Of a DNA stretch of 64,000 bases, positions 15,056-36,545 are shown one piece after another (the first letter of the stretch is position 1; each line of letters opens with the position of its first letter). The translations under genes were made by a program, and so were the position numbers. The stretch covers positions 44,028 to 108,027 of the forward strand of contig NZ_LOQG01000011.1 of the NCBI RefSeq assembly GCF_001517835.1, in the 5' to 3' direction. This DNA comes from Caviibacter abscessus. Its GTDB lineage: Bacteria; Fusobacteriota; Fusobacteriia; Fusobacteriales; Leptotrichiaceae. The notes under the pieces are model-generated. The model was not told where the DNA came from, did not search any database, and saw only the letters and a program-made list of their open reading frames with translations.

Positions 15056-17572
15056 CTACAATAATCTTGGAACAAGTAAAACTCCAAGTACAGGTCCCGC
15101 ATGAGTACCTACAGTTGGTCCAATTTCCTTATTTGACCAAAATACATTAACTTTTCTATTAGATTTAGCATATTTTAAAACTTTATTTGCTTGTTCTTCT
15201 TGTCTAGATGTACCTCCAAATGCTGTTATTAAATATATACTTTGTTGTTTTGTTTTTTCTGCTATAACTTTTTCAAAGTAATTTAATACTCCTGTGTCTC
15301 CACCAAATACTTTTTTTTCTGATATCAATGCCCCATTTACCATAGTAATTACAGGTTTCATATTTAAAAAGTCTCCGATAGTTTGAGCAGTTTTACTAAT
15401 TCTTCCACCTTGTTGTAAATATTTTAAAGTTTCAACAGATATTAAAAGCTTACTTTTTTCGCATATATTTGTAAGAACTCTTTTTATATTTTCTATGCTC
15501 TCACCCTTAGTGGCACGATTTGCGGCTTCAATAACCATATATCCAAGTAATACTGATACAGCTTTAGAATCATATACTTCGATATCTTCTTCTCTTTTTG
15601 TCATTCCTTTTGCAAGTTTAGCAACTTGTACCGTTCCTGATAGTTTACTTGAAATTCCTATAAATAATATCTTTTCATAACCTTTTCTAAATAACTCTTC
15701 ATATAAATTAAGCATTTCTTTAGGAGATGGTTGAGCTGTTTTAAATGTTGCATTCTCATTTACCAACATGTTCCAAAATTGTTGTTTACTAAGATTAATC
15801 CCTGCTTTATAATGGACACCGTTTGATTCCATTCTAACTGGCAATACACTTATATGCTTATTTTCAATATCTTTTTCATCAAGATCTGATGAAGAGTCAG
15901 TTATAATTGCTATTTTTTGCATATTAGGGTCTTTATTTTCTATGAATAAATAAAAATCATAATCTTCTTGATTACCATCAATAACTTTTGTTTTTGATTT
16001 AAAGTTATATTTCAAGTCTAAAATTCTGTCAACTATATGTTGATGCTTATTAATTCCTGAAACTAAAGTAAGTGACAATGTATTTGTACTTATTAATTCA
16101 GATATAATTTTATCAAATATTTGATTTATATCTTTTGAGACATATTTAATTTTAGCATTAACAAGAGCCATATAATCTCCTATTTCAATACTTATATTAT
16201 CTATAACTGCCTCTCTTACTGCTTTTGTTATTTCAATTGAATAATTAAATTCATTTAATAATTTTCTTCTGTTTATGCTGTCATTTGGATATTGTAAATA
16301 AAACATTCCATCAAGCATTGTTTTTGTAGGTAATACTACTATTGTTTTATCAGATTTTTCCGCTGCAAGATTTGCAGTTGATATAACATTTTTATTATTA
16401 GGTAACACATAAATGGTTTTTCCATCTTCAATTTTATCTGTTACAGATAAAATATCATTTACACTTGGATTTTTACCTTGTCCTCCTAAAATAACAAAAT
16501 CTGCACCCATTCTAATAAATTCATCTTTTAATTCTAATGTATCTGAAAGTACTACATACACTACATTCTTATCATTTTCTCTATTTTTGTTTTCAAATAT
16601 TTTTGCCCTATCTTTTTCGTTTTCAAGCACACCTTCATTTTGAAGTTTCATATTTTCTATTTTTATTTTTTCTAAATCACCTCTACTACCTGCTTTTTCA
16701 ATAACAAGTCCAGGATTATTAGTATGTATATGCGTTTTAAATCTTTTACTTGTTTGTGCAAAAACCGCAGAATCTCCCATTTCAAGAAGTTCTTTTTTAA
16801 ACTCTTCTATATCAAAAGAAGAATTTAGGATTATAAACTCAGTACAATACTTATACTTTATATCTCCTAAATTATGATCTATATTAAGAACAGTTTTATC
16901 AAATTCATTTTCTATAAGTTTTGTTTGTGTAAGAAGTTCTATTTCTGTTAAAATTTTTCCCATTCCAACAAAAAAATAGTATAACCCTTTACCACCAGAA
17001 TCCACAACTCCTGCTTCTTTTAATTTTGGAAGTAAACTTGGAGTAAGTTCAACAGCTTCATCTGCAACTTCTATTATTTTTTCTATAAAATCATTGAAAA
17101 GCTCAATATTTTCTTGTTCACAAATTTGAGTTGCTCTTTCTGCTATCATTCTTATAACAGTAAGCATTGTTCCTTCAACAGGTGTATCTACTGCCTTATA
17201 CGCTAACTCTTTTGCACTGTTTAAAGCTTTTGCCACATCTTTTGGATATAGCTTTTTCTTATCGTCATCTATTCCATTTAAAAATCCTGTTATTATTTGT
17301 GATAATATTGTTCCTGAATTTCCACGTGCTCCAAGTAAAACAGCATCTTCTACTATTTCTTTTATATCACTCATACTTGATTTATCAGTTGTTTTTTCTT
17401 CTATTTCAGTTATCATAGTTTTTGATGTAAGAGACATGTTAGTTCCAGTGTCTCCATCAGGAACCGGATACACATTCAATTCATTCAAATAATTTTCATG
17501 CTTTTGTATCCATTTTCCACCACCGATTAAGACTCTACGTAGCCTTTTCGCATCTATGTACTTTATTCCCAT
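15056..17572 (-). CDS. fused fatty-acid kinase: DhaL/Dak2-domain FakA(YloV)-like N-terminus plus a complete DegV (FakB-like) fatty-acid-binding domain
   Basis: The N-terminus has the Dak2 motif PVPDGDTGTNM. The C-terminal ~285 aa are a canonical DegV domain (IAIITDSSSDL...TAQPSPKEM...GISSKLSGT...GGRIS). Confidence 0.75.
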   Translation of the reverse strand: MGIKYIDAKRLRRVLIGGGKWIQKHENYLNELNVYPVPDGDTGTNMSLTSKTMITEIEEKTTDKSSMSDIKEIVEDAVLLGARGNSGTILSQIITGFLNGIDDDKKKLYPKDVAKALNSAKELAYKAVDTPVEGTMLTVIRMIAERATQICEQENIELFNDFIEKIIEVADEAVELTPSLLPKLKEAGVVDSGGKGLYYFFVGMGKILTEIELLTQTKLIENEFDKTVLNIDHNLGDIKYKYCTEFIILNSSFDIEEFKKELLEMGDSAVFAQTSKRFKTHIHTNNPGLVIEKAGSRGDLEKIKIENMKLQNEGVLENEKDRAKIFENKNRENDKNVVYVVLSDTLELKDEFIRMGADFVILGGQGKNPSVNDILSVTDKIEDGKTIYVLPNNKNVISTANLAAEKSDKTIVVLPTKTMLDGMFYLQYPNDSINRRKLLNEFNYSIEITKAVREAVIDNISIEIGDYMALVNAKIKYVSKDINQIFDKIISELISTNTLSLTLVSGINKHQHIVDRILDLKYNFKSKTKVIDGNQEDYDFYLFIENKDPNMQKIAIITDSSSDLDEKDIENKHISVLPVRMESNGVHYKAGINLSKQQFWNMLVNENATFKTAQPSPKEMLNLYEELFRKGYEKILFIGISSKLSGTVQVAKLAKGMTKREEDIEVYDSKAVSVLLGYMVIEAANRATKGESIENIKRVLTNICEKSKLLISVETLKYLQQGGRISKTAQTIGDFLNMKPVITMVNGALISEKKVFGGDTGVLNYFEKVIAEKTKQQSIYLITAFGGTSRQEEQANKVLKYAKSNRKVNVFWSNKEIGPTVGTHAGPVLGVLLVPRLL

Positions 17573-17674: not shown

Positions 17675-19819
17675 TTAAAATTCTCTGTTATATTCCAATC
17701 CAACCCTTAATACATCTTGAGTTGAATACCCTGCTTTAATATTTATACTTGACTTGTCATCTATTATATATCCGATTTTTCCAATTGCACTTACACCAAA
17801 ATTATATTCTTTTTGCTTTTGTGTAAGAGTAACTGTGTTATATCCATAAACTTTTGCACCAATACTTAATTTTTTATACACATACCCTAACTCTAACCCA
17901 AGAGATATTCTGTGATTATATATAAATTTATTGGCTGATGCTATGCCTTCTTCATCTACTAATTTTAATTTATATGTTCCTAATTCTAAATTTACATTTA
18001 TATCAGGACTTATACTAAAACCATATCCTGACCAACCATTAAATTTAAAATTATTATCTACTCTTAAAGCTACATAGTCTGTTTTTACTTTAATGTCTTC
18101 TAAATTACTGTTTGTTAATGAATAAACAACACCTAATCCACTTATATTCTTACCTATTTTTGCATATAAGTTATAATAAGTTTCGAATAATAAATTTACG
18201 TCTTTTGTAGTAAAAGCAATATTTCCACGTAAACCAAAATTTTTATAGACTAAACTTCCTGCGTTTATATTATGAAAAAATTTATTTCCTTGCTTTATAA
18301 GGGTATAGCCTATATTTATTTTATCAGTTAATTCATTATGATGAGTAAATTTTATTGCACTTAAGGCACCATCTTTTATTAAATCTGTTTCTATTTTATT
18401 AAAAATTGAATAAGAAATGCCATTTATTCCATCTTCAATTTGCTTTTTATCATATCGCTTTCCTCCCAATATCGTTGAAAGATTTTCATATGATTGTTTT
18501 AATTCCCCATATTTATTATTTTTAAACTTGTCCAATAAATACATTGCCTTACTTATGTCTATATTCATTAATTTTTTCTCTAAAGTTGGATCATAGTCTT
18601 CATTTACAGATTTTTCCATTTGAGTACCATCTGTAAAAAATCCTAATATATACTTATTAATATCAAATAAATTAGTAGCTGCGTCTAATTTTTGCTCAAT
18701 TTCTTTTATTTTTTCTTCGGTTAATTGTGATGATCTACTATACTTAATTCTTTTTAAATTATGTTTAGCTACTTCTCTTGATTTTTCTAAAGACCAACCA
18801 TTTGCTTCTTGTATTGCAGTTTTAGTCCATATAAAGTTTGAACGTACCAATGTTTTTAAATCAGCAGAAGTATAAGTTCTAGAATCTCTATCTAATGCAT
18901 AGATAAACATACCACCTAAATCATTTTTATTTACATAATCTGCTAATTTGTAAAAATTAGATCGTTTATAATCATTTATATGAAAATCCGTAAATTGATT
19001 GTTTTTTCCTGCATTTTCTTCAGGAAATGTAAGTCCTGGCATAAAATTTTCCTTTGAAAATATATCTTTAAAATTTTCTAATGCTTTCTTAGTTATATGC
19101 CTTTCACCTTCAGTATATTGAGATTTTGTTTTACCATATTGTTGATAAGCTATTTTATCAAAATACCCATTTAAATCTTTAACTGCTTCTTTTCCTAAAT
19201 TATTCGTATCATAAATTAATAAAGTTCCATTTTTAGCTTTAGGGCCTAAATATTCTGATAAAGCTTTTATCATTTTATTACCTATCTCAACCTTTTTTTT
19301 GGTGAGTTGGTCAGGATTAGAAGGATTAGTTGGATTTTCCTTATATGTCATTTCCATATCAATATCTAAGCCATCTAAACCATATTTTTTTACATGTTCC
19401 TCAACTATTTTTTTTGCATATTCTTTTATTTCTTCATCAGTTGGATCTACATCTTTATTTTTTCTTGGTACATCTATTATCTTTTTGTAATTTATTCCAA
19501 ATACAACTTTAACTCCATTTTTATGAAGATGAGGTACATATTCTTTTTTCAACGTTTCCAGATATTCTTCATATTTCTTATTTGCATCAGCTGATAAATC
19601 AGGGTTATAACCAAAAACATTTACAATATTAACACCACTTGGTATATCTTTCATACTCATCCAGTTTTCACCGGTTAAGTTTGTGTTATCTTGTTTAACC
19701 TTTTTATCTCTCCATATTCTATAATATGCTAAAAAATTTCTTTCCTTTATATCTTGTGCATATATTTTAAAATTTATAATATAAATTAAAATTAACATAT
19801 ATTTTAAATATTTTTTCAA
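17675..19819 (-). CDS. secreted GH18 endo-beta-N-acetylglucosaminidase-like domain fused to a C-terminal outer-membrane beta-barrel (autotransporter-like)
   Basis: Has a signal peptide and the GH18 catalytic motif DGLDIDME (DxxDxDxE). The C-terminal ~250 aa have alternating amphipathic beta-strands and end ...EYNREF with a terminal Phe. Confidence 0.6.
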   Translation of the reverse strand: MKKYLKYMLILIYIINFKIYAQDIKERNFLAYYRIWRDKKVKQDNTNLTGENWMSMKDIPSGVNIVNVFGYNPDLSADANKKYEEYLETLKKEYVPHLHKNGVKVVFGINYKKIIDVPRKNKDVDPTDEEIKEYAKKIVEEHVKKYGLDGLDIDMEMTYKENPTNPSNPDQLTKKKVEIGNKMIKALSEYLGPKAKNGTLLIYDTNNLGKEAVKDLNGYFDKIAYQQYGKTKSQYTEGERHITKKALENFKDIFSKENFMPGLTFPEENAGKNNQFTDFHINDYKRSNFYKLADYVNKNDLGGMFIYALDRDSRTYTSADLKTLVRSNFIWTKTAIQEANGWSLEKSREVAKHNLKRIKYSRSSQLTEEKIKEIEQKLDAATNLFDINKYILGFFTDGTQMEKSVNEDYDPTLEKKLMNIDISKAMYLLDKFKNNKYGELKQSYENLSTILGGKRYDKKQIEDGINGISYSIFNKIETDLIKDGALSAIKFTHHNELTDKINIGYTLIKQGNKFFHNINAGSLVYKNFGLRGNIAFTTKDVNLLFETYYNLYAKIGKNISGLGVVYSLTNSNLEDIKVKTDYVALRVDNNFKFNGWSGYGFSISPDINVNLELGTYKLKLVDEEGIASANKFIYNHRISLGLELGYVYKKLSIGAKVYGYNTVTLTQKQKEYNFGVSAIGKIGYIIDDKSSINIKAGYSTQDVLRVGLEYNREF

Positions 19820-19957
19820 CTTTTTAACCTCTACTTTTTTATATTATCACATTAGTATAATATATTTTTAATTTTGTTTCAATTCTTATTTTTAATACTA
19901 TTTTCCTAGGTTTTCATATATAAATTACAACTAAAATTTTAAAAATTAAGATAAATT

Positions 19958-19993
19958 TAAAAGTCCCAAAAACATGAAGTTTCCGAGACTTTA
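19958..19993 (-). terminator. putative intrinsic terminator after the ATP-grasp gene
   Basis: On the minus strand the sequence AAAGUCUC...GGGACUUU forms an 8-bp stem, including one G-U pair, followed by a U-rich tract. Confidence 0.4.
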
Positions 19994-19996
19994 ATT

Positions 19997-21229
19997 TTAT
20001 TTTTCATAAATAATTGTTTCCATTAATTTTCTTAATTTTTTTATTTGATTTTCATAATCACTTTCTGTTTCTGCTATTATTTCTGATAAACTAATTACAT
20101 CTGATGTACTATGACTATTTACTACTTCTTGATTTTCTTTTATAAATATCCATGTGTTTTTAGTCCAATCAAAATCATCTCTATTTAAACCTTTTATAAT
20201 TTTTTTATTTCCTTTTAGTCCTTGCGTATAGCAAGCTGCTATTCTTTTTGGAAAAATTAATTCATTTTTATTTTCTTTATTTCCCTTATCGTTTCCATTT
20301 TTAATAAATGATTCCCAAAAATTTCCAATTAAATTTATGGCAAAAGCATAATTTACTAAAAATGGCAAACTTGCTCCGCCAAATCTTTTAGCAACTTCAC
20401 ATAAATAATATTTTTGAGTTTCAAAATCATAAAACCATTCAAAATGAAATGCATTAACAGAATTATCATTAATAAATCTTTCTAAAACTTTTTTAGATGC
20501 TATTAATACCCCTTTTATTACATCTGAGTTTTTATTATAATTTGGATTTGTTCTAACAATATATTCTTTAGAATTTCCATTTAAAACTGTTAATAAAGGT
20601 TTTTCGTATTCATGAGATGAAAATAAAATAGTGTCATTACCTATACTATAACCATCTCCTGTTAGCATATATGTAATATCCAAGTATTCCTCTATCAAGA
20701 ATTTCATATTGTATTTATAAAATTCTTCTTTTACTTTATTATCATCTCTATTTATTATAAACATTTTTTCACTTGACATACCAACTACTGGTTTGATAAT
20801 AGCTTTATCCTTTTTTGTATTTTCCCAGAAAATATCTATGTCTTCAACTTTTTTTAATAATCTAAAATATGGTTGATTTACAACACCTGCTAAAAAAGAT
20901 CTCATATAGTATTTATTTGTAAATAATAAACTTTTCACTAATTCTGATTCTTTATTATTAAAATATTCTGATATTAATGCTGCCCATTCTATAATATCCT
21001 CATTTAAAGTATAAACTTTTTCAATTACATTTTCTTTTGAAATTTTAGTTATTTCATTTAAAATTTTTTCAAATGTAAAATCTTCTAAAAATATAACTTT
21101 GGGTAGTTTTTTACCATAATTGTCATATTTATTTTTTTGATATATCGGAGCTATGACAATTATATTTTCATTATTTACATGTTCTAGACCTATTGAATAT
21201 GGAGAAAATTGATGAAGTAAAATTATCAT
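19997..21229 (-). CDS. ATP-grasp fold ligase of the carboxylate-amine / L-amino-acid ligase type, function unknown
   Basis: Has ATP-grasp-like segments (IIKPVVGMSSEKMFII; FHFEWFYDFETQKYYLCEVAKRFGG). It sits in a very AT-rich segment, and an AAGGA RBS precedes the start. Confidence 0.55.
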   Translation of the reverse strand: MIILLHQFSPYSIGLEHVNNENIIVIAPIYQKNKYDNYGKKLPKVIFLEDFTFEKILNEITKISKENVIEKVYTLNEDIIEWAALISEYFNNKESELVKSLLFTNKYYMRSFLAGVVNQPYFRLLKKVEDIDIFWENTKKDKAIIKPVVGMSSEKMFIINRDDNKVKEEFYKYNMKFLIEEYLDITYMLTGDGYSIGNDTILFSSHEYEKPLLTVLNGNSKEYIVRTNPNYNKNSDVIKGVLIASKKVLERFINDNSVNAFHFEWFYDFETQKYYLCEVAKRFGGASLPFLVNYAFAINLIGNFWESFIKNGNDKGNKENKNELIFPKRIAACYTQGLKGNKKIIKGLNRDDFDWTKNTWIFIKENQEVVNSHSTSDVISLSEIIAETESDYENQIKKLRKLMETIIYEK

Positions 21230-21320
21230 TTATTTTTCCTTTCTATTATTTCACATATGCATTTCTTAAAATCATTTACATCAATATTTTCTTTCAAAAA
21301 AGCAAAATCTGTAAAATAAT

Positions 21321-22220
21321 TTATATTATTTTTTGTATATTTAAAATACTTTTTTTATAATTACCTTTTTTTAATAAGATAATATTTTGGTTAAATCCAT
21401 ATGTTTCTTTTAAAGTTTTAAAATCGTATTTATCAATATATTTAAATAAATTGTTTTCTATGTTATCAATTTCATTAAAAATATAACTTTTATAATTTTC
21501 AGGTAACAAGTTTAAAAATAGATTTATATCTTTTCCACTTATATAAGAATATATAAGTAATTGCTTTAAAATAATCTTTAATGTATGTCCTTTATAACTT
21601 GACGATATTTTTATATTATATTTTTTTAAAAAATTAATAGTATCCATAAATGATATATATCTATATAAATCTAAATCGTTTAAATTTTCATATTTTATTT
21701 CATCATTATAAATTGTTTCATAAAATCTAATTTTCTTAGGTTTTATATTACTACTAATGTAGTCAAACATTTCTAAATAATAGTTGTTTATTGAAATTTC
21801 ATTATAATTATTTTCATCAATATTAAAATGTGCAAAATCTAATAACAAAATATATTTCCCATTTTTGCAATAGTATAATTTACTGTATGTTCCTACAACT
21901 ACATCATTAAACTTAAAATTTATAATTTCATTAATGTTTTTAACTTCATATTCCTCTAAAATTTTTATAAATACATTATCAGAAGATATAAAAATAAAAT
22001 CATTTTTATTTAACTCTAATTTTTTTAGTAAAAAATCAAAAAAATTAAAATACATTTCTTTTAAATTTTCATATTCTAAATTTTTAAATAAATAACTATC
22101 TATATTATTATAAATTTCCCAATAAGGATTTATTGGTTCAATATTTATTACTTTTGACCAAATTGTTGATTGATTATAATAATATTTGCCATCTTTTAAA
22201 TTTTTAAAATCATGAGCCAT
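21321..22220 (-). CDS. hypothetical protein with no recognisable domain; the 5' end is uncertain and may extend to about 22353 through a frameshift
   Basis: A long ORF with codon usage like the neighbouring ATP-grasp gene. The reading frame stays open for 33 sense codons upstream of the annotated ATG without an in-frame start. Confidence 0.5.
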   Translation of the reverse strand: MAHDFKNLKDGKYYYNQSTIWSKVINIEPINPYWEIYNNIDSYLFKNLEYENLKEMYFNFFDFLLKKLELNKNDFIFISSDNVFIKILEEYEVKNINEIINFKFNDVVVGTYSKLYYCKNGKYILLLDFAHFNIDENNYNEISINNYYLEMFDYISSNIKPKKIRFYETIYNDEIKYENLNDLDLYRYISFMDTINFLKKYNIKISSSYKGHTLKIILKQLLIYSYISGKDINLFLNLLPENYKSYIFNEIDNIENNLFKYIDKYDFKTLKETYGFNQNIILLKKGNYKKSILNIQKII

Positions 22221-22583
22221 AATAGCAGAACCTATAAACCATTTTCCTTTTTCTATACCTTCAAATTCTATTGTATGTATATTATTATTTTTATTAAATT
22301 CTTCAAACTTTATTATAGTTCACCCCTTTACATATACCATTATTATTATACATCTTTACTTTATCAAAGGAATAATAAAGTTTAACAAAAAAAAATTCCT
22401 CTTTGATATACAATTATATATACTATAAAAGGAATTTTATATATTGGTATTTTTAATTTTTCATTCTAGTTCTAATATATTATCAAATCTATTTATATAT
22501 TATTTCTATCTAACAATTCTTCTGGATTCTTATAAATTTCATATGTATTATAAATTTTTCTGCTCAATTTAAATATTTTCATT

Positions 22584-22617
22584 TTAAAAAAAATGGAAGC
22601 CATTTCTGACTTCCATA
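22584..22617 (-). terminator. intrinsic terminator of the rplM-rpsI operon
   Basis: On the minus strand a 7-bp stem (ATGGAAG / CTTCCAT) is followed by a U8 run, immediately after the rpsI stop codon. Confidence 0.65.
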
Positions 22618-22631
22618 TGTTCTTGCAAATT

Positions 22632-28505: not shown

Positions 28506-31139
28506 ATGAAAGAATTAAACGGAAACTATAATCCCGCCGAATTTGAAACCAAATTATATAAAACATGGGAAAATAATAAATATTTTAATGCAGATACAAA
28601 TAGTGAAAAACCTGCATTTTCAATGATACTACCCCCACCTAATGTTACAGGTATACTTCACATAGGGCACGTTATGAACATGTCCGTTCAAGATGCCGTT
28701 ATAAGATATAAAAGAATGAGTGGATATAATGCTTTATGGTTACCAGGAACAGATCATGCAGGTATTGCAACACAAAATAAAGTTGAGAGAATGCTACATG
28801 ATATGGGTACATCAAAAGAACAAATAGGTAAAGAAGAATTTATCAAAAAAACTTGGGAATGGAAACATAAATACGGAAATATAATAACTGAACAATTTAG
28901 AAAAGTTGGATCATCATTTGATTGGACTAGAGAAAAATTTACTATGGACGAAGATGTTTCAAAGGCAGTTAAAGAAGCTTTTGTTAAATTATATAATGAT
29001 GATTTAATCTATCAAGGCGAATACATAGTAAACTGGTGTCCAAAAGATAAAACTGCACTTGCAGATGATGAAATTAATCATGAAGAAAAAGATAGTTTTA
29101 TTTGGCACATTACTTATAATATAAAAGATAGCGATGAAAAATTAATTGTTGCAACTACAAGACCTGAAACAATATTAGGTGATACCGGTGTTGCTGTAAA
29201 TCCAAATGATGACAGATACAAACATCTTATAGGTAAATTTGCGATTTTACCATTAATTAATCGTGAAATACCTATAGTTGCTGATGAATATGTCGAAATG
29301 GAATTTGGAACAGGTTGCGTTAAAATGACTCCATCTCACGATCCTAATGACTTTGAAGTTGCTAAAAGATGTAATCTTGAATATATAAATATATTAACTC
29401 CTGATGCTCACATAAATGAAAATGGTGGAAAGTATTGTGGATTAGATAGATTTGAAGCAAGAAAAGTTATATTAAAAGATCTTGAAGAATTAGGTTTACT
29501 TGTTAAAACTGAAAACCACAAAAATTCAGTAGGTCATTGCTATAGATGTAATACCATTATTGAACCTCGTATATCTAAACAATGGTTTGTTAGAATGAAA
29601 CCCCTTGCAACTAGAGCTTTAGAAGTTGTAAAAAATGGAGAAATAACATTTACTCCTAAAAGAATGGAAAAAATTTACTATAATTGGTTAGAAAATATTA
29701 GAGATTGGTGTATCTCAAGACAAATATGGTGGGGACATCAAATACCTGCATACTATGATCAAAATGGTAAACTTTATGTTGCAAAATCACTTGAAGAAGC
29801 ACAACAAAAAGCAGGAGAAGATAAAATACTTACACAAGAAACTGATGTACTTGATACTTGGTTTTCTTCAGCTCTTTGGCCTTTTACAACTTTAGGTTGG
29901 CCTAGTAAAACAGCTGATATGAGTACATTCTTTCCTACAAATACACTTGTTACAGCAGCAGATATAATATTTTTCTGGGTTGCTCGTATGATAATGATGA
30001 GCTTATACATAACAGATAAAGTACCATTTAATTATGTATATTTCACAGGTATTATTCGTGATGAAATGGGAAGAAAAATGAGTAAATCTCTTGGAAATTC
30101 TGTTGATCCTTTAGAAATTATAAAAAATAAAGGTGCAGATGCTCTAAGATTTAGTTTATTATTTAACATTACTCAAGGTCAAGATCTTAAATTTAATGAT
30201 TCATTAGTTGAAATGGGCTCAAACTTTGCTAATAAAGTATGGAATGCCTCAAAATTTGTAATATCAAATTTAAAAGATTTTGATAATAATATAAGTATAA
30301 TAGATTTAGATTTTAAACTTGAAGATTCTTGGATAATATCAAGACTTAATAATACTTCTGCTTTAATTAATAAAAATATGGAAGAATATAACATAGACCA
30401 AAGTTGTAAACTTGCATTTGAATTTTTCAAAGGAGATTTTTGCGATTGGTATGTTGAAATAGCTAAAACAAGAATATACAACGCAACAGATGAAACAGAT
30501 AAAAAAACAGCCCAATGGGTTTTAAGATATGTTTTAGATAACGCATTAAAACTTCTTCATCCATTTATGCCATTTATAACAGAAGAAATTTGGCAAATTA
30601 TAAAAATAAATGGTGAAACAATAATGCTTGAAAATTATCCTACTCTTGATAAAACATTAGTTGACACAAATATCGAAAAACAATTTTCGTTCTTACAAAA
30701 TGTAATATCTAATGTTCGTAATATCAGAGCAGAAGCCGGTGTATCACCAGCTAAAAAAATTGAAATAATTTATAAAACACAAAATGAGGAAGAAAAACAA
30801 ATATTAATAAATAATCCTAAAATTTTAAACAAATTAGCTAATATTGAAAAAGTTTCAGATACTGATGTACCAAGTCTGGTTGGTTCAAGAGTTTGTGGTG
30901 AAACTCAAATATTTGTTCCTTTAGCAGATTTAATTGATAAAGATAAAGAAATCGAAAAAATTAATAAAGAAATTGAAAAGGTTCAAAAAGAACTTGATAG
31001 AGTTATGGCAAAATTAAATAATGAGGCGTTCATCTCAAAAGCACCTAAAGCTGTTATTGATAAAGAAAACATGATTAAAGATGAACTTAGTTCAAAAATT
31101 AGTAAACTAAAAAATAATTTGGATTTATATATTAATTAG
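28506..31139 (+). CDS. valS: valine--tRNA ligase
   Basis: A class I aaRS with the HIGH motif (PNVTGILHIGH) and KMSKS, plus the C-terminal coiled-coil typical of ValRS. Confidence 0.95.
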   Translation: MKELNGNYNPAEFETKLYKTWENNKYFNADTNSEKPAFSMILPPPNVTGILHIGHVMNMSVQDAVIRYKRMSGYNALWLPGTDHAGIATQNKVERMLHDMGTSKEQIGKEEFIKKTWEWKHKYGNIITEQFRKVGSSFDWTREKFTMDEDVSKAVKEAFVKLYNDDLIYQGEYIVNWCPKDKTALADDEINHEEKDSFIWHITYNIKDSDEKLIVATTRPETILGDTGVAVNPNDDRYKHLIGKFAILPLINREIPIVADEYVEMEFGTGCVKMTPSHDPNDFEVAKRCNLEYINILTPDAHINENGGKYCGLDRFEARKVILKDLEELGLLVKTENHKNSVGHCYRCNTIIEPRISKQWFVRMKPLATRALEVVKNGEITFTPKRMEKIYYNWLENIRDWCISRQIWWGHQIPAYYDQNGKLYVAKSLEEAQQKAGEDKILTQETDVLDTWFSSALWPFTTLGWPSKTADMSTFFPTNTLVTAADIIFFWVARMIMMSLYITDKVPFNYVYFTGIIRDEMGRKMSKSLGNSVDPLEIIKNKGADALRFSLLFNITQGQDLKFNDSLVEMGSNFANKVWNASKFVISNLKDFDNNISIIDLDFKLEDSWIISRLNNTSALINKNMEEYNIDQSCKLAFEFFKGDFCDWYVEIAKTRIYNATDETDKKTAQWVLRYVLDNALKLLHPFMPFITEEIWQIIKINGETIMLENYPTLDKTLVDTNIEKQFSFLQNVISNVRNIRAEAGVSPAKKIEIIYKTQNEEEKQILINNPKILNKLANIEKVSDTDVPSLVGSRVCGETQIFVPLADLIDKDKEIEKINKEIEKVQKELDRVMAKLNNEAFISKAPKAVIDKENMIKDELSSKISKLKNNLDLYIN

Positions 31140-35564: not shown

Positions 35565-36545
35565 TTAATATTTTTTATTTTTCTCCCATTTCCAAGCTGA
35601 TGATATTATATCTTCTAAGTTATACTTAGGCTTAAATCCTAATTCTTTTATTATTTTTTCAGGATCTGCAATAAGTATTGCAGGATCTCCAGCTCTTCTA
35701 TCAGTTTCCTCAACTTTAAAGTCTACTTTTGTAATATCTTTTACTGTATTTATTATTTCTCTAACTGAATATCCAGTTCCATTACCTAAGTTATAATCAA
35801 GAGAAACATTTTCGTTTAGCATTTTCTCCATACTTACTATATGTGCCACTGCTAAATCATAAACGTGTATATAATCTCTTATGCAAGTTTTATCAAAAGT
35901 ATGATAATCTGTTCCATATATTTTTATACTATCTCTAACACCATTTGCAGTTTTTACAACAAGTGGTATTAAATGCGTTTCTGGATTATGACTTTCTCCA
36001 ATAAGACCATCTTCATCAGAACCGGCAGCATTAAAGTATCTTAAAACTACACTTTTTAATCCATATGCTCTTTCAAAATCTTTTAACATATGTTCTACCA
36101 TTAATTTTGACATCCCATATGGATTTATAGGATTTTGTGGATGAGTTTCTTTAATTTTTGATTCTATAGGCTCACCAAAAGTTGCAGCTGTTGAGCTGAA
36201 TACAAAATATTTTACGTTACTTTCAACCATTTGATTAAGTAAATTTATTACTTTTCCTACATTATTTTCATAATATTTACCAGGTTCTATAACTGATTCT
36301 CCAACTTCAATAAATGCAGCAAAATGCATTACAGCATCAATATTTTCATTTTCAAATACTTCTTTTAAGTGATTTCTATCTCCTAAATCTCCAATTATAA
36401 GTTTTACATCTAATATATCAGCAACTTCTTTATGTCCTTTTGATAAATTATCATATATTATTGGATTATAGCCTTGTTTTTTCAAAAGATTAACAGTATG
36501 TGATCCTATGTATCCTGCTCCACCAATAACTAAAATATTTTTCAT
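35565..36545 (-). CDS. galE: UDP-glucose 4-epimerase
   Basis: Has the GGAGYIGSH Rossmann motif and the YxxxK catalytic dyad (YGMSK). Confidence 0.9.
   Translation of the reverse strand: MKNILVIGGAGYIGSHTVNLLKKQGYNPIIYDNLSKGHKEVADILDVKLIIGDLGDRNHLKEVFENENIDAVMHFAAFIEVGESVIEPGKYYENNVGKVINLLNQMVESNVKYFVFSSTAATFGEPIESKIKETHPQNPINPYGMSKLMVEHMLKDFERAYGLKSVVLRYFNAAGSDEDGLIGESHNPETHLIPLVVKTANGVRDSIKIYGTDYHTFDKTCIRDYIHVYDLAVAHIVSMEKMLNENVSLDYNLGNGTGYSVREIINTVKDITKVDFKVEETDRRAGDPAILIADPEKIIKELGFKPKYNLEDIISSAWKWEKNKKY

What the first reader, a model, noticed from the sequence alone, without database searches (positions are those of the whole stretch)
19820..22580. Extremely AT-rich two-gene island (unknown 299-aa protein + ATP-grasp ligase) with its own promoter and terminator, inserted between the ribosomal-protein operon and the GH18 autotransporter
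Sampled stretches of these two genes are about 13-20% GC, compared with about 30% for the flanking housekeeping genes such as gap. The rplM-rpsI operon ends at a clean terminator at 22584-22617, and the island ends at another hairpin terminator at 19958-19993, so it is a separate transcription unit. The 410-aa protein has ATP-grasp segments and the size typical of L-amino-acid ligases or peptide-modifying carboxylate-amine ligases. The 299-aa partner has no recognisable domain. An ATP-grasp ligase together with an unknown partner in a compositionally foreign island could be a small peptide, cell-wall or metabolite-modification system that has not been described. I could find no precursor-peptide-like sORF by eye, so a RiPP role is not supported.
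Basis: partly seen in the sequence, partly recalled or inferred. Interest (0 to 1): 0.6.

Follow-up and report, generated by a model that had tools for sequence, protein, structure and literature searches.

The report
Damaged AlaRS-like gene plus amino-acid ligase
The AT-rich "island" is a two-gene leftover of a mobile, uncharacterised eight-gene biosynthetic cluster: an intact ATP-grasp amino-acid ligase and a damaged gene whose product is a stripped-down alanyl-tRNA-synthetase look-alike, probably a tRNA-dependent amino-acid transferase.

The parts
22593..22616 (-). Intrinsic-terminator hairpin of the rplM-rpsI operon (10-bp stem, then a T run to about 22583). It forms the upstream boundary of the unit.
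   Evidence: Terminator scan. RNA fold dG -14.4 kcal/mol, z -3.3.
22339..22367 (-). Best sigma-70-like promoter candidate for the A-B unit (TTGATA, 17 nt, AATAAT; 10 of 12 matches).
   Evidence: Promoter-like sites are near chance density in this AT-rich DNA, so this is plausible only.
22323..22329 (-). Shine-Dalgarno AAAGGGG of gene A. It is followed by an in-frame TGA (22322-22320) at the position where S. felis has its ATG. A GTG at 22323-22321 is one nucleotide out of frame.
   Evidence: ungapped DNA alignment with S. felis.
21329..22316 (-). Gene A, main frame: an AlaRS-like paralog, residues ~1-329 of a ~363-aa protein. There is no in-frame ATG/GTG/TTG before the conserved WFIGSA motif. 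The only candidate start near the SD is ATA at 22316-22314, 6 nt after it. The annotated 299-aa ORF (21321-22220) begins at an internal Met. The A6 tract at 21329-21334 marks the frameshift region.
21226..21330 (-). Gene A, displaced C-terminal segment (NNINYFTDFAFLKENIDVNDFKKCICEIIERKNK, then stop), in the -1 frame relative to the main frame. A 1-nt deletion relative to both orthologs lies just 5' of the conserved YFTDF codons. Its TGA stop overlaps B's ATG (ATGA).
   Evidence: (second HSP 21333-21229, 66% identity to S. felis residues 331-365). The same sequence occurs in an independent run.
19997..21229 (-). Gene B: an intact 410-aa ATP-grasp carboxylate-amine ligase of the L-amino-acid-ligase type. 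It keeps all 23 family-invariant residues, including K146, E180, E264, E278, R282 and G284-G285.
   Evidence: RizA 4wd3, E 3.8e-13, full length; pLDDT 92.4; top Foldseek hits RizA, BL00235, YwfE/BacD.
19960..19992 (-). Terminator-like hairpin after B (14-bp stem, 5-nt loop, then UUUUAAAUUU). It forms the downstream boundary of the unit.
   Evidence: RNA fold dG -16.2 kcal/mol, z -5.6. It was not reported by the consensus terminator scan.

Best explanation
The locus is a two-gene remnant of a horizontally mobile small-molecule biosynthetic cluster of about 8 genes. In complete form that cluster encodes a beta-hydroxyacid-dehydrogenase-like NAD enzyme, a ~235-aa nucleotidyltransferase-like protein, a ~180-aa protein of unknown type, A, one or two copies of B, a ~222-aa acetoacetate-decarboxylase-like protein, a GalE-type epimerase and an MFS exporter.

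B is an L-amino-acid-ligase-type ATP-grasp enzyme. By inference from that family, it activates a carboxylate as an acyl-phosphate with ATP and joins it to an amine.

A is a truncated paralog of alanyl-tRNA synthetase. It keeps the aminoacylation-domain fold and the tRNA-recognition domain. It has replaced the residues that make aminoacyl-adenylate: the motif-2 Arg is Trp, the Asn of EIWN is Asp, the alpha-amino-binding Asp is Asn, and there is no motif-3 Arg. By inference from the one characterised protein with this architecture, AcmF, A most likely binds charged tRNA (probably Ala-tRNA-Ala) and transfers the aminoacyl group onto an amine of the pathway intermediate. On this reading the A+B module adds two amino-acid-type units, one ATP-dependent and one tRNA-dependent, to a scaffold made by the other genes.

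In C. abscessus the scaffold and export genes are absent from the 64 kb. Gene A has lost its canonical start and carries a 1-nt deletion that removes the invariant C-terminal YFTDxPF segment. This copy is therefore most likely a recently inactivated relic. B alone may still be expressed.

Shown: gene structure, the two lesions, both folds, the residue substitutions, cluster membership and mobility. Inferred: both chemistries, tRNA dependence, and loss of function.
For: Cluster membership. A and B orthologs lie inside the same conserved gene set in S. felis, E. rotai, S. pneumoniae, Atopobacter and three metagenomic contigs (orthology by all-vs-all BLAST). tblastn of all cluster proteins against the window finds only A and B, plus a 40%-identical housekeeping GalE at 35580-36545.

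Mobility. The cluster is flanked by 204-bp (100%) and 121-bp (97.5%) direct repeats of host-gene 3' ends. Integrase, resolvase and transposase genes lie nearby. The cluster is more AT-rich than its host everywhere, with GC3 of 0.22 against 0.37 in pneumococcus.

B. Profile against PDB: RizA, E 3.8e-13, full length. Model pLDDT 92.4. The top six Foldseek hits (three proteins) are L-amino-acid ligases. The catalytic E-x-x-x-R-x-G-G block aligns with that of RizA.

AcmF precedent: PMC12945691.

Lesions. They are reproduced in the independent run SRR29904084.

A sister lineage (L012) shows the same kind of reduction, with short remnants of the neighbouring genes still present.
Against: 1. tRNA-dependent transfer is inferred only from architecture. 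No sequence comparison with AcmF itself was possible, and the substitutions differ (AcmF has N219Q and D232E; here the changes are N to D and D to N).
2. A could be a non-catalytic partner of B instead.
3. The relic reading is weakened by several facts. A's 328-codon frame is fully open (chance 2e-18). Every family-invariant residue is still encoded in all three segments. A strong SD sits at ideal spacing from an ATA codon. The A-B pair was retained independently in two reduced loci (the window and L012). Some function may therefore persist.
4. Whether the missing genes lie elsewhere in the C. abscessus genome is unresolved. The one genome scan returned no C. abscessus locus but also failed to return S. 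felis, so the control failed.
Confidence: 0.6

Rival explanations
1. The A-B pair is a functional, self-sufficient two-enzyme module in C. abscessus. It would be translated from the ATA codon, with either a tolerated C-terminal truncation or occasional frame correction, and would act on a host metabolite or cell-wall precursor.
For: - A-B was retained on its own in two independent reduced loci, the window and L012. In L012 the deletions stop exactly at the pair's borders.
- A's frame is open over 328 codons (P = 2e-18), and all invariant residues are kept.
- The SD lies 6 nt before an ATA codon.
- B is intact with its own SD.
- Hairpins bound the unit.
- The Clostridia loci show that the scaffold genes and A+B are separable modules.
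Against: - Two independent lesions sit at the ends of A.
- The lost C-terminal segment carries the nearly invariant YFTDxPF motif.
- The A6 tract is out of phase for canonical X XXY YYZ slippage and is short for transcriptional slippage (my reading of the sequence).
- L012 keeps an MFS exporter and an ATG start; the window has neither.
- No known substrate source is present in the window.
Confidence: 0.22
2. A is a non-catalytic pseudo-synthetase that serves as a regulatory or substrate-presenting subunit of the ATP-grasp ligase B, as HisZ (a HisRS paralog) does for HisG. It would not be a transferase.
For: - Both class II catalytic arginines and the alpha-amino-binding Asp are lost.
- The A stop overlaps the B start (ATGA) in the window and in S. 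felis, and the genes are adjacent in E. rotai, L004 and L012, which suggests stoichiometric co-production.
Against: - In S. pneumoniae, Atopobacter and L007, A and B are separated by other genes or lie on opposite strands.
- The degenerate pocket still holds invariant polar residues (Q51, T53, W55, N65, E69, N72, D162, N179, Y182, H246, K249, K253), which fits a ligand-binding or catalytic site better than a mere scaffold.
- The only characterised protein with this architecture, AcmF, is catalytic.
Confidence: 0.13
3. The frameshift and the missing start are sequencing or assembly errors, so A is an ordinary intact gene.
For: The deletion lies next to a homopolymer (A6), which is a classic error site. 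The downstream frame is perfectly preserved.
Against: The NCBI assembly GCA_001517865.1 and an independent Logan assembly of run SRR29904084 are 100% identical over 4,378 bp, including both lesions. A 6-base homopolymer is short for systematic error. The 5' lesion is not in a homopolymer.
Confidence: 0.05

Closest known systems
AcmF, the alanyl-tRNA-synthetase-like aminoacyl transferase of ascamycin biosynthesis (Streptomyces sp. 80H647; PMC12945691, ACS Catal 2024 14:3533)
   Same: Both are truncated AlaRS-like proteins made only of the aminoacylation and tRNA-recognition domains. Both have the residues for ATP binding and alanine activation replaced. Both are encoded in a small-molecule biosynthetic cluster.
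   Different: - A is shorter (~363 aa) and so diverged that neither Pfam nor a PDB profile search detects AlaRS. The link needs structure or an intermediate sequence family.
- The substitutions differ: R to W, N to D, D to N and no motif-3 Arg, against N219Q and D232E in AcmF.
- No second AlaRS (the AcmD equivalent) is present in the cluster.
- The hosts are Firmicutes and Fusobacteriota rather than Actinobacteria.
- The partner enzymes are different (an ATP-grasp ligase; no nucleoside-sulfamate genes).
- Activity is untested, and direct homology to AcmF was not tested.
L-amino-acid ligases RizA (rhizocticin), YwfE/BacD (bacilysin) and BL00235
   Same: B shares the full-length three-domain ATP-grasp fold and the catalytic E...R-x-G-G block. 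These are its best sequence-profile and structural matches. Like BacD, B sits in a cluster with an MFS exporter and redox enzymes.
   Different: Sequence identity is only 13-17%. Substrates are unknown. My guess that the ~180-aa companion is BacA/PDT-like was tested and not supported, so the cluster is not a bacilysin-type pathway.
Rgg3/SHP3-linked streptococcal biosynthetic operons (the GAS qim operon; pneumococcal Rgg939 operon)
   Same: The pneumococcal copy of the parent cluster lies directly downstream of an Rgg gene and a 23-aa SHP ending in DIIIIVGG, the SHP3/SHP939 pheromone type.
   Different: Gene content differs from both the qim operon and the D39 Rgg939 operon as described. A 2022 preprint notes four alternative BGCs at this pneumococcal site, two of them unrelated to the GAS genes. 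Which of the four this cluster is was not established. No Rgg or SHP is present in the window.
HisZ and other catalytically inactive class II synthetase paralogs
   Same: Both have a class II aaRS core that has lost aminoacylation residues and is used in metabolism outside translation.

Membership tests
ATP-grasp L-amino-acid ligase (Lal) group: protein B | Three-domain ATP-grasp fold over the full length | tested here: met
   AF2 model pLDDT 92.4, pTM 0.90. Foldseek top hits are RizA 4wd3 (4.6e-21), BL00235 3vot and YwfE/BacD 3wo1/3vmm. Pfam ATP-grasp_3 is only sub-threshold (E 0.06).
ATP-grasp L-amino-acid ligase (Lal) group: protein B | Conserved nucleotide/Mg2+ and catalytic residues (Lys in the B-domain, the Glu pair, the E-x-x-x-R-x-G-G block) | tested here: met
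   Family invariants K146, E180, E264, E278, R282, G284 and G285 are all present in the window protein. CEVgkRFGG aligns with GEIAMRIGGG of RizA in the profile alignment.
ATP-grasp L-amino-acid ligase (Lal) group: protein B | ATP-dependent ligation of unprotected L-amino acids into a dipeptide | not testable with these tools
   This needs an enzyme assay. Substrate specificity cannot be read from 13-17% identity.
AcmF-type AlaRS-like aa-tRNA-dependent transferase: protein A | AlaRS aminoacylation plus tRNA-recognition domains only, with no editing or C-Ala domains | tested here: met
AcmF-type AlaRS-like aa-tRNA-dependent transferase: protein A | Loss of the residues needed for ATP binding and alanine activation | tested here: met
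   MAFFT alignment with E. coli AlaRS 1-461: the motif-2 Arg (CVR) becomes an invariant Trp, the Asn of EIWN becomes Asp, the Asp of VDTGMG becomes an invariant Asn, and the motif-3 Arg has no counterpart.
AcmF-type AlaRS-like aa-tRNA-dependent transferase: protein A | Retained tRNA-recognition elements | tested here: inconclusive
   KGHxxKKILK aligns with RGYVLRRIIRR, and LxE/D-T/R-YG aligns with LYDTYGFP. About 40 residues of the helical domain are deleted relative to AlaRS. tRNA binding itself was not tested.
AcmF-type AlaRS-like aa-tRNA-dependent transferase: protein A | Transfer of the aminoacyl group from Ala-tRNA-Ala to a small-molecule amine | not testable with these tools
   Biochemical assay required.
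AcmF-type AlaRS-like aa-tRNA-dependent transferase: protein A | Detectable sequence homology to AcmF itself | not tested
Canonical alanyl-tRNA synthetase: protein A | Class II motif-2 and motif-3 arginines, Asp235, and editing and C-Ala domains | tested here: not met
   (substitutions). Length is ~363 aa against 876 aa. No Pfam tRNA-synt_2c hit. No full-length AlaRS appears among the profile hits.
Intact member of the ~8-gene parent cluster: the window locus | Presence of the NAD-dehydrogenase, ~235-aa, ~180-aa, ~222-aa, GalE-like and MFS genes next to A and B | tested here: not met
   tblastn of all cluster proteins from four loci against the 64-kb window finds only A and B. No remnants lie in the flanks, and there is no flanking direct repeat.
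RiPP system | A precursor-peptide ORF next to the ATP-grasp enzyme | tested here: not met
   All ORFs of 20 aa or more in 19820-22631 were listed. None is peptide-like or conserved. The 23-aa ORF at 21226-21297 is the displaced C-terminus of A.
Anti-phage defence system | Match to known defence protein families | tested here: not met
   PADLOC finds no hit for A, B or three companion proteins.

The most novel reading that the evidence does not exclude
Protein A would define a previously unrecognised, very small family of AlaRS-derived, non-adenylating, aminoacyl-tRNA-dependent transferases in host-associated Firmicutes and Fusobacteriota (38 clusters among 1.84 billion representatives). It would work together with an L-amino-acid ligase as a portable 'double amide-bond' module, combining one ATP-grasp step with one tRNA-dependent step. 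That module would peptidylate the product of a mobile cluster that in pneumococcus lies directly downstream of an Rgg/SHP3-type quorum-sensing pair. The product would be an unknown peptidyl metabolite (an antimetabolite or signal) made by pathogens and commensals. The repeated survival of A-B alone (the window and L012) would mean the module has a function of its own.
Probability: 0.35. Interest if true: 0.8.

Novelty: new variant of a known kind. Interest (0 to 1): 0.6.

Why it matters
Only one AlaRS-like tRNA-dependent transferase, AcmF, was found in the literature search, and it comes from a Streptomyces nucleoside-antibiotic pathway. A second, far more diverged family with the same stripped-down architecture would show that hijacking charged tRNA through synthetase paralogs is more widespread than thought. 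Here the family sits beside an ATP-grasp ligase in a mobile cluster carried by pneumococcus, S. suis, Enterococcus, Streptobacillus and relatives.

It also gives a concrete and testable hypothesis for one of the uncharacterised biosynthetic clusters placed directly downstream of Rgg/SHP in S. pneumoniae.

For genome annotation, the case shows how a mis-called start and a frameshift in an extremely AT-rich gene can hide a recognisable fold behind a 'hypothetical protein' label.

For C. abscessus itself the consequence is modest, because the copy looks like a decaying remnant.

Tried and rejected
1. Bacilysin-like pathway. I suspected that the ~180-aa companion (LGPxxTDS...HPAT) was a BacA/prephenate-dehydratase-family enzyme. 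Pfam and a profile search of PDB sequences gave no support, so I dropped the idea.
2. The 877-aa ORF at 28506-31139 as the genome's AlaRS, for motif comparison. hhalign showed no relation to A, and tblastn with E. coli AlaRS found no alaS in the window. I used E. coli alaS instead.
3. Direct profile-to-sequence comparison of A with E. coli AlaRS. hhalign E = 0.19, not significant on its own. Homology rests on structure and on the bridge proteins.
4. Identity with the GAS qim operon or the D39 Rgg939 operon. The literature descriptions show different gene content.
5. att-like direct repeats of the rpsI 3' end around the window island, and remnants of neighbouring cluster genes in its flanks. 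None were found. A ~20-nt resemblance to the 3' end of the ~180-aa gene just upstream of A's SD is too short to claim.
6. T-box, riboswitch or other Rfam element in the 280-nt leader: none at E <= 1. Dedicated tRNA genes in the clusters: none.
7. Defence-system reading: no PADLOC hits.
8. Whole-genome test for the missing genes in C. abscessus.
9. The AFDB fold library was unavailable.
10. dN/dS between the window and S. felis was not attempted, because at 58-73% amino-acid identity and about 10% GC3 the synonymous sites are saturated.
Full report
**Identity of the window.** The 410-aa and 299-aa proteins are 100% identical to Caviibacter abscessus proteins. The window is identical to contig LOQH01000001.1 of GCA_001517865.1. 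The window averages 26.3% GC.

**Check of the observation.**
- Two same-strand ORFs lie at 19997-21229 (B, 410 aa) and 21321-22220 (the '299 aa' call).
- The hairpin after rpsI (22593-22616) is found by the terminator scan and folds at -14.4 kcal/mol (z -3.3).
- The hairpin after B (19960-19992; 14-bp stem, 5-nt loop) folds at -16.2 kcal/mol (z -5.6, no shuffle as stable). It was not reported by the consensus terminator scan.
- The stretch 19820-22580 is 19.3% GC. That is the lowest 0.3% of same-size windows, and the global minimum starts at 19760.
- The anomaly is uneven. A is 15.7-16.3% GC (z -3.2, the lowest of 58 ORFs). B is 22.5% (z -1.1).
- GC3 of both genes (0.107 and 0.102) equals the background (0.127 +/- 0.028). 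Their synonymous codon usage is closer to the pooled usage than that of most genes (ranks 31 and 40 of 46).
- The low GC therefore lies in codon positions 1 and 2, that is, in an amino-acid composition rich in F, Y, I, N and K (57% and 44%). In a genome whose third positions are already saturated with A/T, composition cannot show foreignness.

**Gene A is mis-called and damaged.** Its homologs are 354-371 aa.

At the N-terminus, the conserved sequence (...WFIGSAIMAHD) is encoded upstream of the called ATG and in frame with it. The frame opens after a TGA at 22322-22320 and contains no ATG, GTG or TTG before the internal Met. In an ungapped DNA alignment the S. felis ATG lies exactly over the window's TGA. 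The nearby GTG is one nucleotide out of frame. The only candidate start at good spacing from the strong SD (AAAGGGG, 22329-22323) is ATA at 22316.

At the C-terminus, the conserved sequence (YFTDFxFLKE...IIERK) is encoded in the -1 frame at 21330-21226. tblastn splits the S. felis protein into two HSPs, 22313-21348 and 21333-21229. The DNA alignment shows exactly one missing nucleotide relative to both S. felis and L012, next to the A6 tract at 21329-21334. With the frame restored, A ends in a TGA that overlaps B's ATG (ATGA), as in S. felis.

An independent assembly (Logan, run SRR29904084) is 100% identical over 4,378 bp, including both lesions, so they are not one-off assembly errors. The damage must be recent or partly tolerated. 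The 328-codon main frame has no stop (chance 2e-18 at this composition). Every family-invariant residue is still encoded in all three segments.

**What B is.** Pfam gives only a sub-threshold ATP-grasp_3 match. A 46-sequence profile matches the PDB chain 4wd3, the L-amino-acid ligase RizA, over its full length (E 3.8e-13). The AlphaFold model is confident (pLDDT 92.4, pTM 0.90). Its best Foldseek matches are the L-amino-acid ligases RizA, BL00235 and YwfE/BacD, ahead of PurD, PurK and biotin carboxylases. The family-invariant residues include the ATP-grasp Lys, the Glu residues and the E-x-x-x-R-x-G-G block, and all are present in the window protein.

**What A is.** No Pfam, NCBIfam, PADLOC or PDB-sequence match exists. 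The family is very small: 19 clusters in the 5.8-billion-protein search, and 38 representative clusters among 1.84 billion proteins in an exhaustive HMMER scan.

A sequence bridge supports homology. The A profile reaches 416-421-aa proteins (P0091, P0092, P0096; E 5e-8 to 3e-5). These score 46-104 bits on Pfam tRNA-synt_2c against a gathering cutoff of 30.3.

I aligned the A family, the bridge proteins and E. coli AlaRS residues 1-461. The correspondences are:
- LFTNAGM aligns with WFIGSAxM.
- QRCVR, which holds the motif-2 arginine, aligns with QxTIW, where the Trp is invariant.
- The Asn of EIWN aligns with an Asp.
- The Asp of VDTGMGLER aligns with an invariant Asn. From my knowledge of AlaRS structures, that Asp binds the alpha-amino group of alanine.
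- The motif-3 Arg has no counterpart in A.
- The tRNA-recognition-domain signatures persist: RGYVLRRIIRR aligns with KGHxxKKILK, and LYDTYGFP aligns with LxE/D-T/R-YG.

A is therefore an AlaRS paralog reduced to the aminoacylation and tRNA-recognition domains, with its adenylation machinery dismantled.

**Closest precedent.** A 2026 review (PMC12945691) describes AcmF of ascamycin biosynthesis in the same terms. It is a truncated AlaRS-like protein with only these two domains. It lacks most ATP and alanine-activation residues (N219Q, D232E). It transfers alanine from Ala-tRNA-Ala, supplied by the cluster's own AlaRS AcmD, onto an amine. On that basis the most likely activity of A is aminoacyl transfer from charged tRNA. 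This is inference. The substitutions differ, there is no AcmD-like gene or tRNA gene in the clusters, and I could not compare A with AcmF directly.

**Genomic context elsewhere.** Complete clusters contain these genes:
- a beta-hydroxyacid-dehydrogenase-type NAD enzyme (PDB 2uyy, 8.5e-13);
- a ~235-aa protein with weak nucleotidyltransferase matches;
- a ~180-aa protein of unknown type;
- A;
- one or two B paralogs;
- a ~222-aa protein with weak acetoacetate-decarboxylase similarity;
- a GalE equivalog (414 bits);
- an MFS transporter.

The clusters occur in these genomes and contigs:
- **S. felis**, with an additional PatB-like PLP enzyme.
- **E. rotai**.
- **Atopobacter**.
- **S. pneumoniae**.
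- **Metagenomic contigs**, which carry resolvase, integrase and transposase genes.

In E. rotai the cluster lies between tuf and rpsJ and is bounded by 204-bp perfect direct repeats of the tuf 3' end. In S. felis it is bounded by 121-bp repeats of the purD 3' end. The cluster is more AT-rich than its host everywhere, for example 28% against 36-39% GC and GC3 of 0.22 against 0.37 in pneumococcus. That is real evidence of horizontal transfer.

In pneumococcus the cluster follows an Rgg regulator and a 23-aa peptide ending in DIIIIVGG, the SHP3/SHP939 pheromone type. The described qim and Rgg939 operons have other gene content. A preprint notes four alternative BGCs at this site, two of them unrelated to the GAS genes. 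This cluster appears to be uncharacterised.

Three Clostridia genomes carry the dehydrogenase, ~180-aa and ADC-like genes (two of them also the aminotransferase) without A or B. The system is therefore modular: a scaffold module plus an A+B module.

**The window copy.** tblastn with every cluster protein finds only A and B in the 64 kb. A 40%-identical GalE at 35580-36545 looks like the housekeeping enzyme, since cluster copies are 55-66% identical to each other. There are no flanking repeats of the rpsI 3' end and no remnants of neighbouring genes.

The next closest relative (contig L012; B 62% and A 53% identical) shows the same kind of reduction to MFS-A-B. It still carries a 15-aa remnant of the ~180-aa gene and a 30-aa remnant of the ~222-aa gene at the borders of the pair. 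Reduction from the full cluster is thus documented in a sister lineage. Both reductions kept A-B, which is either selection for the pair or a consequence of its central position in the cluster.

**Verdict.** With scaffold and exporter genes missing and A carrying two lesions, the most likely status in C. abscessus is a recently inactivated relic with an intact ligase gene (confidence about 0.6). The rival readings are:
- a still-functional two-enzyme module (about 0.22);
- A as a non-catalytic partner of B (about 0.13);
- sequencing error (about 0.05).

No RiPP precursor, riboswitch or T-box, or defence-system signature was found.

**Novelty.** The ligase is a new member of a known kind. The AlaRS-like partner is a strongly diverged, unannotated variant of a kind known from a single characterised example. 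Its pairing with an L-amino-acid ligase in a mobile cluster was not found described in the literature searches I ran. This particular locus is ordinary in the sense that it is probably decaying; the family it reveals is not.

Noticed in passing
window 15056-17572 (-): A single 838-aa polypeptide combines Dak2, FakA middle and C-terminal domains with a full DegV domain. This appears to fuse the fatty-acid kinase A subunit with its FakB-type binding partner.
   Followed up: no
window 17675-19819 (-): A 714-aa protein has an EndoS-like GH18 TIM barrel (residues 31-306, 221 bits) and a ~400-residue C-terminal region with no Pfam match.
   Followed up: no
L013 7528-7731 and 16909-17112 (E. rotai); L002 5269-5389 and 14051-14171 (S. 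felis): The full cluster is bounded by long direct repeats of the 3' end of a housekeeping gene (tuf: 204 bp, 100%; purD: 121 bp, 97.5%), and no integrase lies inside the bounded segment. In S. felis an integrase-bearing element lies just beyond it. This looks like insertion at gene 3' ends with tandem accretion.
   Followed up: partly
L008 3961-4965 (S. pneumoniae): An Rgg regulator and a 23-aa peptide, MKKISKFFPILMLVMDIIIIVGG, lie directly upstream of the cluster. The C-terminal DIIIIVGG is the SHP3/SHP939 pheromone sequence listed in PMC13361665.
   Followed up: partly
L016, L017, L018 (Clostridia MAG, Eubacteriaceae, Roseburia): A related gene set (NAD dehydrogenase, ~180-aa protein, ADC-like protein, plus a PatB-like aminotransferase in L016 and L017) occurs without the AlaRS-like gene or the ATP-grasp gene. 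This suggests a separable scaffold module.
   Followed up: partly
L002 6780-8385 versus L001 6790-8385 (two S. felis assemblies): The fused dehydrogenase/nucleotidyltransferase-like gene is intact (531 aa) in one assembly and split into 429 + 100 aa in the other. The cluster may be decaying in that species too, or this may be an assembly error.
   Followed up: no
P0061 (595 aa, metagenomic): An A-family protein appears fused to a MobA/MobL relaxase domain (PF03389). It may be a gene-calling artefact on a mobile element.
   Followed up: no
P0091, P0092, P0096 (416-421 aa) and P0094, P0095 (379-394 aa): A further set of truncated AlaRS-like proteins lies between the A family and canonical AlaRS. 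They also have Trp in place of the motif-2 Arg, but three of them keep the D...LER motif-3 block. Their genomic context could not be looked up.
   Followed up: partly
window 35580-36545 (-): A GalE equivalog (438 bits) is about 40% identical to the cluster's GalE-like genes. I took it to be the housekeeping enzyme and not part of the system.
   Followed up: partly
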